Source: a virus
Taxonomy: Duplodnaviria; Heunggongvirae; Uroviricota; Caudoviricetes
Direction: 5' to 3' (one strand)
Length of the DNA stretch: 4,632 nucleotides
Virus record (IMG/VR): IMGVR_UViG_2690316321_000001
Shown here: positions 1,740 through 4,632 of the stretch, piece by piece
Layout: every line of letters starts with the position of its first letter
Numbering within the stretch: position 1 is the first letter of the stretch
Made by a program: the position numbers and the translations under genes
The notes under the pieces: generated by a model
Databases searched by the model: none
Seen by the model: only the letters and a program-made list of their open reading frames with translations
What the model was told of the DNA's origin: nothing

Positions 1740-1757
1740 ATGGCCCCGAAGGGCCAT
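1740..1757 (-). other. Stable RNA stem-loop with a C(UUCG)G tetraloop between the E stop and the FI ribosome-binding site
   Basis: The minus strand reads UAA(E stop)-uc-AUGGCCC-UUCG-GGGCCAU-ugucucucuguGGAGaagucc-AUG(FI). That is a perfect 7-bp stem (plus 1740..1746 pairing with 1751..1757) closed by a UUCG tetraloop. Confidence 0.45.
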
Positions 1758-1759
1758 GA

Positions 1760-2785
1760 TTACGTCAGTTGTACGGACACGAACTCATCAGGGTCAGCCA
1801 GCAGCATCAGCGGTGCTGACTGAATCATGGTGAACTCACGCGCCGGATCGCCGGTGGTCACCCAGTTTTTCGGGTAACGGGCAGAGGCGTTAATGCCTTC
1901 GCGCTGTGCGTCCGCATCCTGAATGCAGCCATAGGTGCGCAGACCGCGTGCCTGAGTGTTGCCCAGCACCATCGTGTTGTCCGGCAGGAAGTTCTTTTTG
2001 ACACCATTTTCCACGTACTGTCCGGAATACACGACGATGGCCACATCGCCATACATTCCCTTATAAGACACCGCTTTGCCCAGGTCTTTTACCGCTGTCT
2101 CCAGTTCGGAATGAGAGCCGCGACGGGTATCCAGCTTCTCCCTGACGGCTTTGAAGGAACGGAACAGCGCCCAGCCTTTCGGGTCAAACACGATGATATT
2201 CACCACGCCGCTGGCGTTCAGCGCGTAGGCTTCGATATCGTCGGTCGGGTCATACGTGGACTTGTCACGCTTGCTCCACTCCGTGCCGCCGGACTGCGTG
2301 ATGTTGTTCGCCGCACTGCGGCCCATATCCACCTCAACCGGATCGAAGGCTTCACCGGTCATGGTGTATTTGCCCCTGAGCACGGCAGAAACTGCCTGCA
2401 TCTCTTCGACCTGAGCAATGGCCAGCTCTTCGTCACGCATGTTCTGCAGGATGATGCGACGGCGGCGGTAAGCCGGGTCCGCCAGATTCTGCGGATCTTC
2501 ATCCGGCAGGCGACGCAGGGTCATCTGCGGATTCACTTCATGCTTGGGTTTGACATATCCCGGCGTAAATTCAGAGGTGGAGCCGCCACGGGAACGGATA
2601 ACCTCACCGGAAACAATCGGCGAAACGTACAGCGCCATGTTTACCAGTCCCGGAATTTGTGAGAGATAGACTTTCTCCGTAGTGAAGGGATAGCTCTCAC
2701 GGAAAAAGAGACGCAGAAACAGCGGATCAAACTTAAATTTCTGCTCATTTGCCGCCAGCAGCTGGGCGGTTGTGTACATCGACAT
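1760..2785 (-). CDS. E: Major capsid protein E (gpE, HK97-fold), 341 aa
   Basis: Track ORF 1760..2812 (-) is 350 aa, but the lambda gpE N-terminus MSMYTTAQLLAANEQKFKFDPLF begins at residue 10 (ATG at 2785..2783). The track's upstream ATG lies inside the D-E terminator-like hairpin and U-tract, so I trimmed it. Length of 341 aa and C-terminus ...DPDEFVSVQLT fit gpE. Confidence 0.94.
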   Translation of the reverse strand: MSMYTTAQLLAANEQKFKFDPLFLRLFFRESYPFTTEKVYLSQIPGLVNMALYVSPIVSGEVIRSRGGSTSEFTPGYVKPKHEVNPQMTLRRLPDEDPQNLADPAYRRRRIILQNMRDEELAIAQVEEMQAVSAVLRGKYTMTGEAFDPVEVDMGRSAANNITQSGGTEWSKRDKSTYDPTDDIEAYALNASGVVNIIVFDPKGWALFRSFKAVREKLDTRRGSHSELETAVKDLGKAVSYKGMYGDVAIVVYSGQYVENGVKKNFLPDNTMVLGNTQARGLRTYGCIQDADAQREGINASARYPKNWVTTGDPAREFTMIQSAPLMLLADPDEFVSVQLT

Positions 2786-2798
2786 AAAAAAATCCCGT

Positions 2799-2819
2799 AA
2801 AAAAAGCCGCACAGGCGGC
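2799..2819 (-). terminator. Terminator-like GC hairpin plus U-tract in the D-E intergenic spacer (sense orientation)
   Basis: The minus strand reads TAA(D stop)...cacuaaaG-GCCGC-cugu-GCGGC-UUUUUUU-acgggaUUUUUUU-AUG(E). That is a 5-bp all-GC stem (plus 2806..2810 pairing with 2815..2819), a 4-nt loop, and 7 U immediately 3' (plus A-run 2799..2805). The stem can extend by A-U and G-U pairs into the flanking A and U runs. Confidence 0.4.
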
Positions 2820-2840
2820 CTTTAGTGATGAAGGGTAAGG

Positions 2841-3173
2841 TTAAACGATGCTGATTGCCGTTCCGGCAAACGCGGTCCGTTTTTTCGTCTCGTCGCTGGC
2901 AGCCTCCGGCCAGAGCACATCCTCATAACGGAACGTGCCTGACTTGTAGAACGTCAGCGTGGTGCTGGTCTGGTCAGCAGCAACCGCCAGGATGCCAACG
3001 GCAGCACCGTCGGTGGTGCCATCCCACGCAACCAGCTTACGGGTGGAGGTATCCGGCATCAGCGGGGTCATTGCAGGCGCTTTCGCACTCAATCCTCCGG
3101 GCGCGGTTGCCGTATGTGCCGGGTCACTGTTGCCCAGCGGCTGGTAATGGGTAAAGGTTTCTTTGCTCGTCAT
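2841..3173 (-). CDS. D: Capsid decoration protein D (gpD), 110 aa
   Basis: Track ORF 2841..3179 (-) begins [29 protein letters not shown]; lambda gpD begins [12 protein letters not shown] therefore call the second ATG (3173..3171), which lies 6 nt downstream of the AAGGG that follows the C stop. The first ATG is directly adjacent to that Shine-Dalgarno, which is too close. Confidence 0.9.
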
Positions 3174-3182
3174 AAACATCCC

Positions 3183-3578: not shown

Positions 3579-4502
3579 TCGCCCTCCTGAGAGACGGGAT
3601 TTACGTGCATCCAGTGCATCACGCATGACGGTGATCGCATCGGTACTGTTAACAAGTTCATCAGCCAGTCCGGCATCAATGGCCTCCTGACCGCTGTACA
3701 CTGCAGCCTCGGTATCCAGCACAGCCTGCACGGACAGGCCGGTATATGCCGACACCTTCTGTGCAAACATCCGGCGGGTTGCATCCATCCGGGACTGCAG
3801 TGTTTCCCGGACATCATCCGGAAGATGGCTGTAGGGGTTGCCATCCACCTTATGGCTGCCGCTGTAAATCAGCGTGATTTCCACACCCTGTTTCTCCAGC
3901 GCAGCACCGTAATTACTGTGAGCCATCATGACGCCGATGGAGCCTGTCCGGGCGGTCTGCGTGACCAGACGCCGGGAGGCGGCACTGGCAAGCAGCTGAC
4001 CTGCGCTGCAGTTCATGTCATTGGCCAGCGCCCATACCGGCTTTATGTCACGCACACGGGCGATGATGTCAGCGCAGTCAAATGCCCCTGCCACCATTCC
4101 GCCGGGCGTGTCCATATCCAGCAGAATGCCGTCCACCATCGGGTCACTGGCAGCCTGTTGCAGACGGGCGATAATGCCGTTGTAACCGGTCATCCCCGAA
4201 TACGGCTGCAGCGCCCGCGTCCGGCTGACCAGCGTGCCGGAAACCGGCAGCACGGCGATGCCGTTCATGACCTGATAACTGCGGGCCTGTCGTGGTCCGT
4301 CATCATTAACGGATAACGCCAGCGTCGCGGGTGCCTCTCCGGCAGTCAGGCTGTCACCGGACACCGCATCTGTCAGGCGGCTGATCCCAAGCTGGCCTGC
4401 AAGCGCACAAAAGAAAACCCGCGCATAGGCGGGTTCAAGCATCAGCGGCTCATTAAAGGCCATGCTGGCAATATGCGGGAGATTACGCAGCTCTGCTGTC
4501 AC
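3183..4502 (-). CDS. C: Prohead (capsid assembly) protease C, S49 peptidase family, 439 aa, GTG start
   Basis: Track ORF 3183..4616 (-) is 477 aa. The gpC N-terminus (M)TAELRNLPHIASMAFNEPL begins at a GTG (plus-strand cac at 4500..4502), preceded on the minus strand by caacagaGGAGGAGaaga-GTG, a strong Shine-Dalgarno. The track's upstream ATG at 4616 lies inside the B coding region and has no Shine-Dalgarno. The resulting 439 aa equals lambda gpC. The predicted nucleophile Ser166 (NDMNCSAGQ) is encoded at 4005..4007. Confidence 0.9.
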   Translation of the reverse strand: MTAELRNLPHIASMAFNEPLMLEPAYARVFFCALAGQLGISRLTDAVSGDSLTAGEAPATLALSVNDDGPRQARSYQVMNGIAVLPVSGTLVSRTRALQPYSGMTGYNGIIARLQQAASDPMVDGILLDMDTPGGMVAGAFDCADIIARVRDIKPVWALANDMNCSAGQLLASAASRRLVTQTARTGSIGVMMAHSNYGAALEKQGVEITLIYSGSHKVDGNPYSHLPDDVRETLQSRMDATRRMFAQKVSAYTGLSVQAVLDTEAAVYSGQEAIDAGLADELVNSTDAITVMRDALDARKSRLSGGRMTKETQSTTVSATASQADVTDVVPATEGENASAAQPDVNAQITAAVAAENSRIMGILNCEEAHGREEQARVLAGTPGMTVETARRIMAAAPQSAQARSDTALDRLMQGAPAPLAAGNPASDAVNDLLNTPV

Positions 4503-4632
4503 TCTTCTCCTCCTCTGTTGATTGTCGCAGCCCGGATTCAAATGCCGCAGCCGCCCAGGCGGGCGGTTTAAGACCAGCCGCGCGGCGCTCCATCGTTTCA
4601 CGGACCTGCTGGGCAAAAATTTCCTGATAGTC
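4483..4632 (-). CDS. B: Portal protein B (gpB), C-terminal fragment: the 5' end lies beyond the window end
   Basis: My own reverse-complement translation from 4632 gives an open frame DYQEIFAQQVRETMERRAAGLKPPAWAAAAFESGLRQSTEEEKSDSRAA ending in TAA at 4485..4483. The stop lies 20 nt downstream of the C GTG start, reproducing the B/C overlap of lambda. It is absent from the ORF track because it is partial. Confidence 0.8.
   Translation of the reverse strand, partial: DYQEIFAQQVRETMERRAAGLKPPAWAAAAFESGLRQSTEEEKSDSRAA

What the first reader, a model, noticed from the sequence alone, without database searches (positions are those of the whole stretch)
2786..2822. Intrinsic-terminator-like hairpin and U-tract inside the late operon, between D and E
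A GC stem (GCCGC/GCGGC, 4-nt loop) followed by 7 U, in the direction of transcription, sits between the D stop and the E start. A second U7 run lies immediately before the E ATG. Lambda late transcription is Q-antiterminated, so such a signal would be read through during infection. It could still act as a processing or stability element. The U-rich leader may also serve as a translation enhancer for E, whose only Shine-Dalgarno candidate is a weak GGGA about 7 nt upstream.
Basis: partly seen in the sequence, partly recalled or inferred. Interest (0 to 1): 0.45.

Follow-up and report, generated by a model that had tools for sequence, protein, structure and literature searches.

The report
Conserved terminator hairpin before lambda capsid gene
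The hairpin plus U-run between the lambda-type head genes D and E is a real, strongly conserved, textbook-shaped transcription terminator inside the late operon; public phage records already annotate it, but nobody has tested what it does.

Summary
Observation confirmed. The window is about 97% identical to phage lambda bases 4288-8922, with the genes on the minus strand. On that strand the D stop (2843-2841) is followed by AAAG-GCCGC-CUGU-GCGGC-U7-AC-GGGA-U7-AUG of E (2785-2783).

An all-GC 5-bp stem followed by T6 occurs once in the window, against 0.0005 per dinucleotide shuffle. In my whole-lambda terminator scan it ranks 6th of 1238 candidates, among sites I place (from memory) at t_oop, tR2 and tI.

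All 60 distinct D-E spacers from relatives (E identity down to about 68%) keep four things:
- a perfect 6-7 bp stem, in nine stem types that include compensatory and sense-strand-only G·U changes;
- freely varying loops;
- 6-9 U directly after the stem;
- an A after the U-run in 56 of 60.

The second U7 is not conserved; it is A-rich in most relatives.

GenBank records for phages 434, HK629, HK225 and N15 already annotate this site as a rho-independent terminator. It is therefore already known, but functionally untested.

Most likely it is a conditional terminator. It would stop polymerase that lacks Q just before E's ribosome-binding site, and Q-modified polymerase would read through it. The hairpin and U-tract may also serve mRNA stability and E translation. 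A second conserved hairpin follows E. Interest is low to moderate.

The parts
2841..3179 (-). Gene D (head decoration protein). Stop codon UAA at 2843-2841, 17 nt before the extended stem.
   Evidence: the ORF listing. Pfam HDPD PF02924, E = 3e-20. Aligns to lambda D 5747-6079.
2820..2823 (-). A-rich 5' flank AAAG. It can pair with the first four U of the U-tract, extending the stem to 9 bp.
   Evidence: RNAfold minimum-free-energy structure. An A-rich flank is present in most relatives.
2806..2819 (-). Core hairpin: GCCGC (2819-2815), loop CUGU (2814-2811), GCGGC (2810-2806).
   Evidence: Sequence. Core stability -7.7 kcal/mol. Perfect stem in 60 of 60 distinct relatives, with 9 stem types and 25 loop sequences. 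97.3% of cells paired, and 0 of 500 shuffles reach the covariation score.
2799..2805 (-). U-tract (U7) directly after the stem.
   Evidence: Sequence. Total U-run is 6-9 in all 60 distinct relatives, and exactly 7 in 41.
2797..2798 (-). AC after the U-tract. With G2807-C2806 it gives GC(U)7RY, the 'bubble-edge' positions of the HUB terminator model. Predicted RNA release is around 2797-2799.
   Evidence: Motif definition from bioRxiv 10.64898/2026.05.29.728758. An A follows the U-run in 56 of 60 relatives, across six different SD contexts. GC(U)7RY is present in 32 of 60.
2793..2796 (-). Weak Shine-Dalgarno GGGA of E, 7 nt before the AUG.
   Evidence: SD:anti-SD duplex -4.1 kcal/mol, second weakest of 20 lambda late genes. 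Replaced by GAGGA, AGGA, AGGU or UGGA in some relatives.
2786..2792 (-). Second U7 run, the spacer between SD and AUG. Lineage-specific.
   Evidence: Present in the lambda group, L119 and L130. It is AAAAUCU or similar in most relatives. Predicted mostly unpaired, 0.8-0.9.
1760..2785 (-). Gene E (major capsid protein), AUG at 2785-2783.
   Evidence: Pfam Phage_cap_E PF03864, E = 8e-71. Aligns to lambda E 6135-7160. The 350-aa GTG-start ORF (start 2812, inside the hairpin loop) is a mechanical over-extension.
1740..1757 (-). Partner hairpin just after the E stop: AUGGCCC-UUCG-GGGCCAU, followed by a weak U-rich tail. Together with the D-E hairpin it brackets the E cistron.
   Evidence: Sequence. 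Stability -12.9 kcal/mol, z = -3.65. Conserved with different stems across the family. Listed by the consensus scan in lambda at 7163-7180.

Best explanation
The feature is a genuine intrinsic (Rho-independent) terminator module. It sits in the 55-nt spacer between the head-decoration gene D and the major-capsid gene E of a lambda-type prophage, and it faces the direction of late transcription.

Proposed mechanism:
1. RNA polymerase that does not carry the Q antiterminator pauses on the U7 tract.
2. The GC hairpin folds at the RNA exit channel.
3. The RNA is released at about 2797-2799. This is 12-14 nt before the E start codon and just before E's Shine-Dalgarno sequence.
4. Stray, Q-independent transcription therefore cannot express E or the genes downstream. 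The element acts as a fail-safe or insulator.
5. Q-modified polymerase coming from pR' reads through it. During lytic growth the element is simply transcribed.
6. In that mRNA the stem-loop remains as a stable intercistronic hairpin. The U-tract and the A/U-rich spacer form the unstructured, SD-poor leader of E.

Shown here:
- the architecture and its statistical non-randomness
- family-wide conservation with compensatory and sense-strand-only wobble changes
- a match to the hairpin / U-tract / bubble-edge (HUB) terminator definition
- a fixed register relative to the E start
- a single copy in the lambda genome

Inferred, not shown:
- that it actually terminates
- that Q bypasses it
- any contribution to mRNA stability or to E translation
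For: Architecture:
- GC stem, tetraloop, U7, then AC.
- Stability -7.7 kcal/mol for the core and -11.8 kcal/mol extended.
- One such feature in the window, against 0.0005 expected per shuffle.
- Sixth of 1238 candidates in lambda. It scores next to candidates at the positions I recall for t_oop, tR2, tL2, tI and t_imm. It is the best sense-strand candidate inside Nu1-J.

Match to the HUB definition (GC at -11/-10, U7, R at -2, Y at -1):
- The window has GC-U7-A-C.
- 32 of 60 distinct relatives have GC(U)7RY.
- An A follows the U-run in 56 of 60, whichever SD variant comes next.

Conservation:
- The hairpin, U7 and AYGGGA are invariant between lambda and the N15/phi80/HK225 group. The rest of the spacer differs and carries a 12-nt indel.
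- All 60 distinct spacers have perfect 6-7 bp stems, 25 different loops and 6-9 U directly after the stem.
- Stem variants: GGCCAC/GUGGCC, ACCGCGC/GCGCGGU and GGGUCGC/GCGGCCC. Single C-to-U variants give G·U pairs only in the sense-strand RNA (L045, L058).
- 97.3% of cells paired. Two pairs show double changes. No shuffle of 500 reaches the covariation score.

Context:
- Independent annotators call the same site a rho-independent terminator in 434, HK629, HK225 and N15.
- The D stop lies 17-40 nt before the stem. That is far enough for at least partial terminator function even with a trailing ribosome.
- Intra-late-operon terminators are recognised in P22-like phages. The proposed roles include stopping spurious, non-antiterminated transcription.
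Against: - There are no experimental data for this site in the searchable literature.
- No promoter-like site above chance lies upstream in the sense orientation that would need insulating. The benefit of a fail-safe here is therefore conjectural.
- The stem is short, with 5 G-C pairs in the core.
- Position -1 is C, not the preferred U.
- In the lambda group the D stop is only 17-21 nt from the stem. In the tR2 study, efficiency at that distance ranged from 0.12 to 0.8.
- The hairpin's position is fixed relative to the E start (14-20 nt) but variable relative to the D stop (0-40 nt). This also fits a role tied to E's leader.
- More distant relatives (E about 60% identical) keep a GC hairpin after D but have no canonical U-tract. 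The E-FI hairpin in lambda also lacks one. The feature shared most widely is therefore a hairpin, not a terminator.
Confidence: 0.55

Rival explanations
1. RNA-level stabiliser or processing boundary. After Q-dependent read-through, the D-E hairpin and the conserved E-FI hairpin act in the mRNA. They would block 3'-to-5' exonucleases, protecting Nu3/D and E respectively. After cleavage in the AU-rich spacer, they could leave E with a protective 5' stem-loop. This would give the most abundant head proteins long-lived message. Terminator activity would be incidental. This is not exclusive of the best explanation.
For: - Hairpins flank E on both sides, and both are conserved across the family with different stem sequences.
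- Relatives with E about 60% identical (L123, L127, L128) keep a GC hairpin right after the D stop but have no canonical U-tract.
- The lambda E-FI hairpin has a UUCG tetraloop, -12.9 kcal/mol, z = -3.65, and only a weak U tail.
- D and E are each needed at roughly 400 copies per head (about 420 for D; E from established knowledge).
Against: - An exonuclease block does not need a U7 directly after the stem, nor the conserved A after it. Both are kept in 56-60 of 60 distinct sequences.
- No end-mapping or half-life data could be found.
Confidence: 0.3
2. Translation enhancer for E. The U-tract and the A/U-rich spacer recruit the 30S subunit through ribosomal protein S1. This would compensate for the weak GGGA Shine-Dalgarno. 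The hairpin would be secondary. This is not exclusive of the other explanations.
For: - E has the second-weakest SD:anti-SD pairing of 20 late genes (-4.1 kcal/mol), although it is the major capsid protein.
- The U-tract ends 13-15 nt before the AUG, and its distance to the AUG is tightly fixed.
- The SD-AUG spacer is predicted 0.8-0.9 unpaired.
- U-rich, S1-dependent enhancers upstream of the SD are documented for rnd and manY.
Against: - The second U7 is not conserved.
- Relatives with a good SD (GAGGA, L147 group) still keep the hairpin and U7.
- The hairpin lowers predicted accessibility of the U-tract (0.43-0.51, against 0.73-0.90 without it). It does not change SD or AUG accessibility.
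- An enhancer does not explain conservation of a GC stem with compensatory changes.
Confidence: 0.2
3. An internal promoter for E, as annotated in one phi80 record: -35, -10 and a transcription start site in the same spacer.
For: FN582354 annotates minus_35, minus_10 and a transcription start site between gene 7 and gene 8.
Against: - The consensus promoter scan finds nothing in this spacer in the window or in lambda.
- The hexamers I read at the annotated coordinates (TTTCTA and a CATAAA-like element) are weak. They lie partly in a 12-nt segment that the lambda group lacks.
- The annotated start falls inside the hairpin.
- Other records of the same sequence family annotate a terminator instead.
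Confidence: 0.03
4. A chance palindrome, or a DNA-level protein-binding inverted repeat with no RNA role.
For: The stem is short and its sequence, not only its pairing, is highly conserved.
Against: - Expected 0.0005 per window by chance.
- Loops vary freely while stems stay paired.
- Variants include G·U pairs that are tolerated only in the sense-strand RNA, plus fully different stems.
- The U-tract always follows on the sense strand.
- The covariance model finds a single copy in lambda.
Confidence: 0.03

Closest known systems
The 'rho-independent terminator' annotated between the head-decoration and major-capsid genes of phage 434 (OL657226 6100-6120), HK629, HK225, mEp237 and N15 (AF064539 5980-6004)
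   Same: - It is the same element at the same position.
- The window's hairpin, U7 and ACGGGA are identical to the 434 and HK629 sequences. They differ from N15/HK225 by one loop base and one flanking base.
   Different: - Those annotations are computational ('putative').
- The lambda reference records J02459 and NC_001416 do not annotate it.
- No function has been assigned.
Canonical intrinsic terminators of lambda (tR2, t_oop, tI), as defined by the hairpin / U-tract / bubble-edge (HUB) model
   Same: - GC-rich stem, short loop, U7.
- GC at -11/-10 and a purine at -2.
- A score comparable to candidates at the positions I recall for these terminators in a uniform scan.
   Different: - It lies inside an antiterminated operon, between two essential genes that are expressed together.
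- Its U-tract ends 13 nt before a start codon.
- The stem is shorter (5-6 G-C pairs).
- Position -1 is C, not U.
[quoted passage not shown]
   Same: - A predicted intrinsic terminator within a single-promoter, antiterminated late operon next to the capsid genes.
- The authors state that the roles of such terminators are unknown. They suggest partial termination, or a block to spurious non-antiterminated transcription.
   Different: - Different phage lineage and different capsid genes.
- In L/P22 the terminator follows the procapsid module. Here one element precedes the capsid gene and a second hairpin follows it.
U-rich, S1-dependent translational enhancers (E. coli rnd, manY)
   Same: - A U-rich tract just upstream of a suboptimal translation start.
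- From memory, not verified here: the rnd element is also a terminator-like stem-loop followed by U8.
   Different: - No evidence here for S1 binding or any effect on translation.
- The hairpin and U-tract are retained even where the SD is strong.

Membership tests
Intrinsic (Rho-independent) terminator, classical plus HUB definition | GC-rich hairpin with a short loop immediately upstream of the U-tract | tested here: met
   GCCGC-CUGU-GCGGC, -7.7 kcal/mol for the core and -11.8 kcal/mol extended.
Intrinsic (Rho-independent) terminator, classical plus HUB definition | Uninterrupted U-tract of about 7 directly after the stem | tested here: met
   U7 at 2805-2799. The run is 6-9 U in all 60 distinct relatives.
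Intrinsic (Rho-independent) terminator, classical plus HUB definition | Bubble-edge GC at -11/-10 | tested here: met
   G2807-C2806 immediately precede U7. Criterion. GC precedes the U-run in 45 of 60 relatives.
Intrinsic (Rho-independent) terminator, classical plus HUB definition | Bubble-edge RU at -2/-1 | tested here: inconclusive
   The window has A-C, which is R-Y. This matches the elemental-pause consensus, and C carries minor information at -1. A perfect GC(U)7RU is found in only 4 of 60 relatives; GC(U)7RY in 32 of 60.
Intrinsic (Rho-independent) terminator, classical plus HUB definition | Enough free RNA between the upstream stop codon and the stem for the hairpin to fold behind a ribosome | tested here: inconclusive
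   17 nt to the extended stem and 21 nt to the GC core in the window. 29-40 nt in many relatives. For tR2, efficiency was 0.12-0.8 at 17-18 bp and about 0.9 beyond 30 bp.
Intrinsic (Rho-independent) terminator, classical plus HUB definition | Releases RNA from unmodified RNA polymerase in vitro or in vivo | not testable with these tools
   No experimental data were found in the library.
Terminators bypassed by lambdoid Q antitermination (inside the late operon) | Lies in the sense orientation within the pR'-driven late operon | tested here: met
   Between D and E of a region 97% identical to lambda, on the same strand as all the late genes.
Terminators bypassed by lambdoid Q antitermination (inside the late operon) | Read through by Q-modified RNA polymerase | not testable with these tools
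   Follows from established knowledge of Q antitermination. E and the tail genes downstream must be expressed from pR'.
A/U-rich S1-dependent translational enhancer | Single-stranded U/A-rich tract 5' of or around a weak SD | tested here: inconclusive
   Mean predicted probability of being unpaired is 0.43-0.51 for the first U-tract and 0.80-0.89 for the spacer. The SD is weak, -4.1 kcal/mol.
A/U-rich S1-dependent translational enhancer | The U-rich element is conserved among relatives | tested here: inconclusive
   The first U-tract is conserved. It also belongs to the terminator, so it is not diagnostic. The second U7 is replaced by AAAAUCU or similar in most relatives.
A/U-rich S1-dependent translational enhancer | Binds S1 or the 30S subunit and raises translation | not testable with these tools
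   Needs reporter fusions, toeprinting or binding assays.
Intercistronic mRNA-stabilising hairpin | Stable stem-loop conserved by pairing rather than by sequence | tested here: met
   Nine stem types. Hairpins persist after D in the group with E about 60% identical, which has no U-tract. The partner hairpin after E is conserved with different stems.
Intercistronic mRNA-stabilising hairpin | Processed RNA ends at the hairpin and different stability of the flanking segments | not testable with these tools
   Needs end mapping and decay measurements in induced lysogens.
Any curated Rfam RNA family | Reaches the family's gathering score | tested here: not met
   The only overlap is Leu_leader RF00512, 20.3 bits against a gathering score of 50, E = 0.84. 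The match is below threshold and not significant.

The most novel reading that the evidence does not exclude
The major-capsid cistron is deliberately boxed in by two family-wide conserved hairpins.
- The upstream one is a true conditional terminator. Its selected role would be to keep capsid protein at zero in lysogens, for example to avoid triggering host defence systems that sense the capsid protein.
- After Q read-through, the pair would delimit a processed, long-lived E message whose U-rich leader drives SD-independent initiation.

One 37-nt element would then act at three levels: transcription insulation, mRNA stability and translation.
Probability: 0.12. Interest if true: 0.55.

Novelty: already known. 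Interest (0 to 1): 0.25.

Why it matters
Lambda's late operon is the textbook case of one promoter, one antiterminator and one 26-kb message. Even so, it carries a near-perfect terminator 13 nt in front of its most highly expressed head gene.

- The same junction is present in 3200 of 5426 complete E. coli genomes.
- The comparative data here show that the element is under selection as a structure, and probably as a terminator. That makes the question directly testable with simple reporter and end-mapping experiments.
- It is also a practical caution for lambda display and vector engineering around D and E.
- It exposes a false negative of simple terminator scanners when an A-tract lets the stem extend into the U-tract.

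It is not a new kind of element.

Tried and rejected
1. The built-in promoter/terminator scan did not list the site in the window or in lambda. I rejected this as evidence against the feature. The site satisfies the classical criteria by eye and ranks 6th of 1238 in my own scan.
2. An Rfam scan with permissive thresholds gave nothing significant.
3. Covariance model R1 and its alignment A4 mis-registered the Serratia-like L147 group by one column. The five 'not paired' cells at two pairs are an alignment artefact. A per-sequence stem search shows perfect stems in those sequences.
4. I tested whether the hairpin insulates or exposes E's ribosome-binding site. In silico mutation or deletion leaves SD and AUG accessibility essentially unchanged. 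That idea is dropped.
5. I tested whether it is a repeated element. It occurs once in the lambda genome.
6. A bidirectional terminator is unlikely in the window. The antisense tail is CUUUAGUG, which is weak, and no antisense candidate near this site appears in the top 40.
7. The internal promoter annotated in one phi80 record is not supported by the scans.
8. Ten literature searches and several direct look-ups found no experimental study of this site. Liu 2013, Sampson 1988, Casjens & Hendrix 2015 and Zhang & Deutscher 1992 are not held. The only text hit to the hairpin sequence is a recombineering oligo.
9. My scan did not place tR' in its top 40, so its ranking is imperfect and should be read as relative only.
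10. Which candidates are the known terminators (t_oop, tR2, tL2, tI, t_imm) is assigned from my memory of their coordinates. NC_001416 annotates no terminators.

Full report
WHAT THE WINDOW IS

The 4632-base window is 97% identical over its full length to phage lambda J02459 4288-8922, in reverse orientation. It is 97.5% identical to several lambda-like phages. On the minus strand it carries C/Nu3, D, E, FI, FII, Z and the start of U. Pfam confirms three of these: D as HDPD (PF02924), E as Phage_cap_E (PF03864) and FI as Packaging_FI (PF14000). The finding lies in the 55-nt spacer between D and E.

THE OBSERVATION

Read on the minus strand, the spacer runs as follows:
- D stop UAA, 2843-2841
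- 17 nt of spacer
- AAAG, 2823-2820
- GCCGC, 2819-2815
- CUGU, 2814-2811
- GCGGC, 2810-2806
- U7, 2805-2799
- AC, 2798-2797
- GGGA, 2796-2793
- U7, 2792-2786
- AUG of E, 2785-2783

The core hairpin folds at -7.7 kcal/mol. The version extended by A-U and G·U pairs into the U-tract folds at -11.8 kcal/mol, z = -2.6. The whole spacer folds at -14.5 kcal/mol, z = -2.4.

An all-GC 5-bp stem with a 3-8 nt loop followed by T6 occurs once in the window. It occurs on average 0.0005 times in 2000 dinucleotide-preserving shuffles.

I wrote a d'Aubenton-Carafa-style scan and ran it on the whole lambda genome, both strands. The site ranks 6th of 1238 U-tract candidates. It scores next to candidates at 38605, 40619, 33930, 27543 and 35806. 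From memory these are the positions of t_oop, tR2, tL2, tI/sib and t_imm; NC_001416 itself annotates no terminators. The D-E site is the best sense-strand candidate within Nu1-J.

The session's simple consensus scan did not list the site in the window or in lambda. I infer that it extends the stem into the U-run, which leaves too few T in its tail window. I treat this as a false negative.

ALREADY ANNOTATED ELSEWHERE

A distant-mode search of the phage collection showed that several records annotate exactly this site:
- 'terminator, rho-independent' in phage 434, OL657226 6100-6120
- the same in HK629
- the same in HK225
- 'putative rho-indep. transcription terminator' in N15, AF064539 5980-6004

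The lambda reference records do not annotate it. One phi80 record instead annotates a -35, a -10 and a transcription start site in the same spacer.

CONSERVATION

Lambda and the N15/phi80/HK225 group are about 74% identical in this region. They share an invariant hairpin, U7 and AYGGGA. The rest of the spacer differs and carries a 12-nt indel. The second U-run is replaced by AAAAUCU.

I collected 262 loci that encode E relatives, from viral contigs and from one genome per species. These reduce to 60 distinct sequences of the 49 nt before the start codon. All 60 have the following:
- a perfect 6-7 bp stem with 4-6 G-C pairs
- a 3-4 nt loop, with 25 different loop sequences in total
- 6-9 U directly after the stem

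There are nine stem types:
- GGCCAC/GUGGCC (L130), a G-C to A-U double change
- ACCGCGC/GCGCGGU (the Serratia-like L147 group)
- GGGUCGC/GCGGCCC (Trabulsiella)
- two single C-to-U variants within the lambda group (L045, L058), which give G·U pairs in the sense-strand RNA and would be A·C mismatches in the antisense RNA
- the common AGCCGC, GGCCGC, AGGCCGC and GGGCCGC forms, which differ only in the outermost pairs

On a model-fitted alignment, 97.3% of cells are paired and two pairs show changes on both sides. None of 500 shuffles reaches the observed covariation score. The five unpaired cells there come from a one-column mis-registration of the L147 group.

The covariance model finds a single copy in the lambda genome. 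The junction is present in 3200 of 5426 complete E. coli genomes.

DOES IT LOOK LIKE A WORKING TERMINATOR?

[quoted passage not shown] It summarises these as GC(U)7RU, which resembles the elemental pause consensus GS(N)7RY, with minor information for C at -1.

The window reads GC-U7-A-C. That satisfies the hairpin, the U7, GC at -11/-10 and the purine at -2, with the second-best base at -1. The predicted release point is about 2797-2799. This is just before the GGGA and 12-14 nt before the AUG, so terminated RNA would lack E's ribosome-binding site.

Among the 60 distinct relatives:
- 32 match GC(U)7RY
- 4 match GC(U)7RU exactly
- an A follows the U-run in 56, across six different SD contexts (ACGGGA, AUGGGA, AUGAGGA, ACAGGA, AUAGGU, AAUGGA)

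That pattern is what selection on polymerase behaviour would give. A mere RNA hairpin would not require it.

The D stop lies 17 nt before the extended stem (21 nt before the GC core) in the lambda group. In other groups it lies 29-40 nt before. For lambda tR2, ribosomes repress termination when the stop codon is a few nt away. Efficiency was 0.12-0.8 at 17-18 bp and about 0.9 beyond 30 bp. Termination is therefore possible here, but could be modulated by a ribosome translating D.

LINKS TO E EXPRESSION

The distance from the end of the extended stem to the AUG is 14-20 nt, mostly 16-18. The distance from the D stop to the stem ranges from 0 to 40 nt. The element is therefore registered on E's start, not on D's end.

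E's SD:anti-SD pairing is -4.1 kcal/mol, second weakest of 20 lambda late genes. D (-5.3) and V (-5.9) are also weak. U-rich, S1-dependent translational enhancers are documented for rnd and manY.

Three results argue against the hairpin existing mainly for translation:
- Relatives with a strong SD (GAGGA) still keep the hairpin and U7.
- The second U7 is lineage-specific.
- In silico disruption or deletion of the hairpin leaves SD and AUG accessibility unchanged. It increases accessibility of the U-tract.

A SECOND HAIRPIN AFTER E

Immediately after the E stop lies AUGGCCC-UUCG-GGGCCAU at 1757-1740, with -12.9 kcal/mol and z = -3.65. It is conserved across the family with different stems. Several lineages add a strong U-tract, for example L220, L252 and L118.

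Relatives with E about 60% identical (L123, L127, L128) keep a GC hairpin just after the D stop. They have no canonical U-tract and they have a proper SD.

The feature shared most widely is therefore a pair of stable hairpins bracketing E. That keeps an mRNA-stability or processing role alive.

INTERPRETATION

I commit to a conditional intrinsic terminator, with confidence about 0.55 that this is the main selected function. In this model:
- It stops polymerase that lacks Q just before E's ribosome-binding site.
- Q-modified polymerase reads through it. This rests on established knowledge of Q antitermination and is not tested here.
- In the lytic mRNA, the hairpin and U-tract are probably reused as an intercistronic stabiliser and as part of an A/U-rich, SD-poor leader.

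The stabiliser model (0.3) and the translation-enhancer model (0.2) are rivals that do not exclude it. The promoter annotation and the chance or DNA-site readings are unlikely (about 0.03 each).

Authors of a phage L genome paper state that intra-late-operon terminators occur in P22-like phages and that their roles are not known. They suggest partial termination, or a block to spurious non-antiterminated transcription.

Against the fail-safe idea, I found no promoter-like site above chance upstream in the sense orientation.

NOVELTY AND VERDICT

The element is real, non-random and strongly conserved. It is a standard kind of element, and other annotators have already marked it at this exact place in closely related phages. 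No experimental work on it was found in ten literature searches.

I rate it 'already known', with interest 0.25. The residual value is that a small, well-defined question becomes easy to test: why does a Q-antiterminated operon keep a near-perfect terminator in front of its capsid gene?

Noticed in passing
window 1740-1757 (minus strand): A stable hairpin AUGGCCC-UUCG-GGGCCAU (UUCG tetraloop, -12.9 kcal/mol, z = -3.65) lies 2 nt after the E stop and before FI. It is conserved across the whole E family with different stems, and some lineages add a strong U-tract. E is therefore bracketed by two conserved hairpins.
   Followed up: partly
window 4415-4436 (minus strand); lambda 4484-4505: A terminator-like hairpin lies inside the coding sequence of gene C, in the sense orientation: GAACCCGC-CUAUGC-GCGGGUUU followed by UCUUUUGUG. 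The consensus scan lists it, and it ranks 13th in my lambda-wide scan.
   Followed up: no
L146 (lambda) about 15466-15491, the I-J spacer; also 18920-18945 and 19612-19643: There are other sense-strand terminator-like hairpins in or at the end of the lambda late operon:
- CCGCCUGCGGGCGG-UUUUGUCAUUU between I and J
- one between J and lom
- the top-scoring one after lom
   Followed up: no
L004 (phi80 FN582354) 422-456: This record annotates a -35, a -10 and a transcription start site for gene 8 in the same D-E spacer. They overlap the hairpin that the N15 and HK225 records call a terminator. The public annotations of one conserved sequence therefore conflict.
   Followed up: partly
L089-L104, L107, L122, L125, L129, L131, L134-L141, L143-L145: Many genome assemblies of unrelated organisms contain short contigs 95-99% identical to lambda E, several labelled with coverage near 1x. 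Examples are Chromatium, Neobacillus, Kitasatospora, Paenibacillus, Bradyrhizobium, Akkermansia and Prevotella. This is almost certainly lambda DNA contamination or spike-in.
   Followed up: no
L146 (lambda) starts of D, E and V: The genes for the abundant virion proteins D, E and V are among those with weak SD:anti-SD pairing (-5.3, -4.1 and -5.9 kcal/mol, in a set of 20 late genes that ranges from -3.3 to -12.0). High output with a poor SD may be a general property of these genes.
   Followed up: no
window 2799-2805 and 2786-2792; loci L015, L036, L045, L050, L057, L075, L087: Both U-runs vary between 7 and 8 (occasionally 6) among otherwise near-identical lambda-like prophages. This is either homopolymer slippage or sequencing error.
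   Followed up: no
window 2812 and 1757 (minus strand): The mechanical ORF list extends E upstream to a GTG inside the D-E hairpin loop (350 aa). It extends FI upstream to the AUG inside the E-FI hairpin (144 aa). Both are artefacts when compared with the lambda annotation.
   Followed up: yes
window 2799-2894 (minus strand): There is a sub-threshold Rfam match to the leucine operon leader: RF00512, 20.3 bits against a gathering score of 50, E = 0.84. It is not significant.
   Followed up: partly
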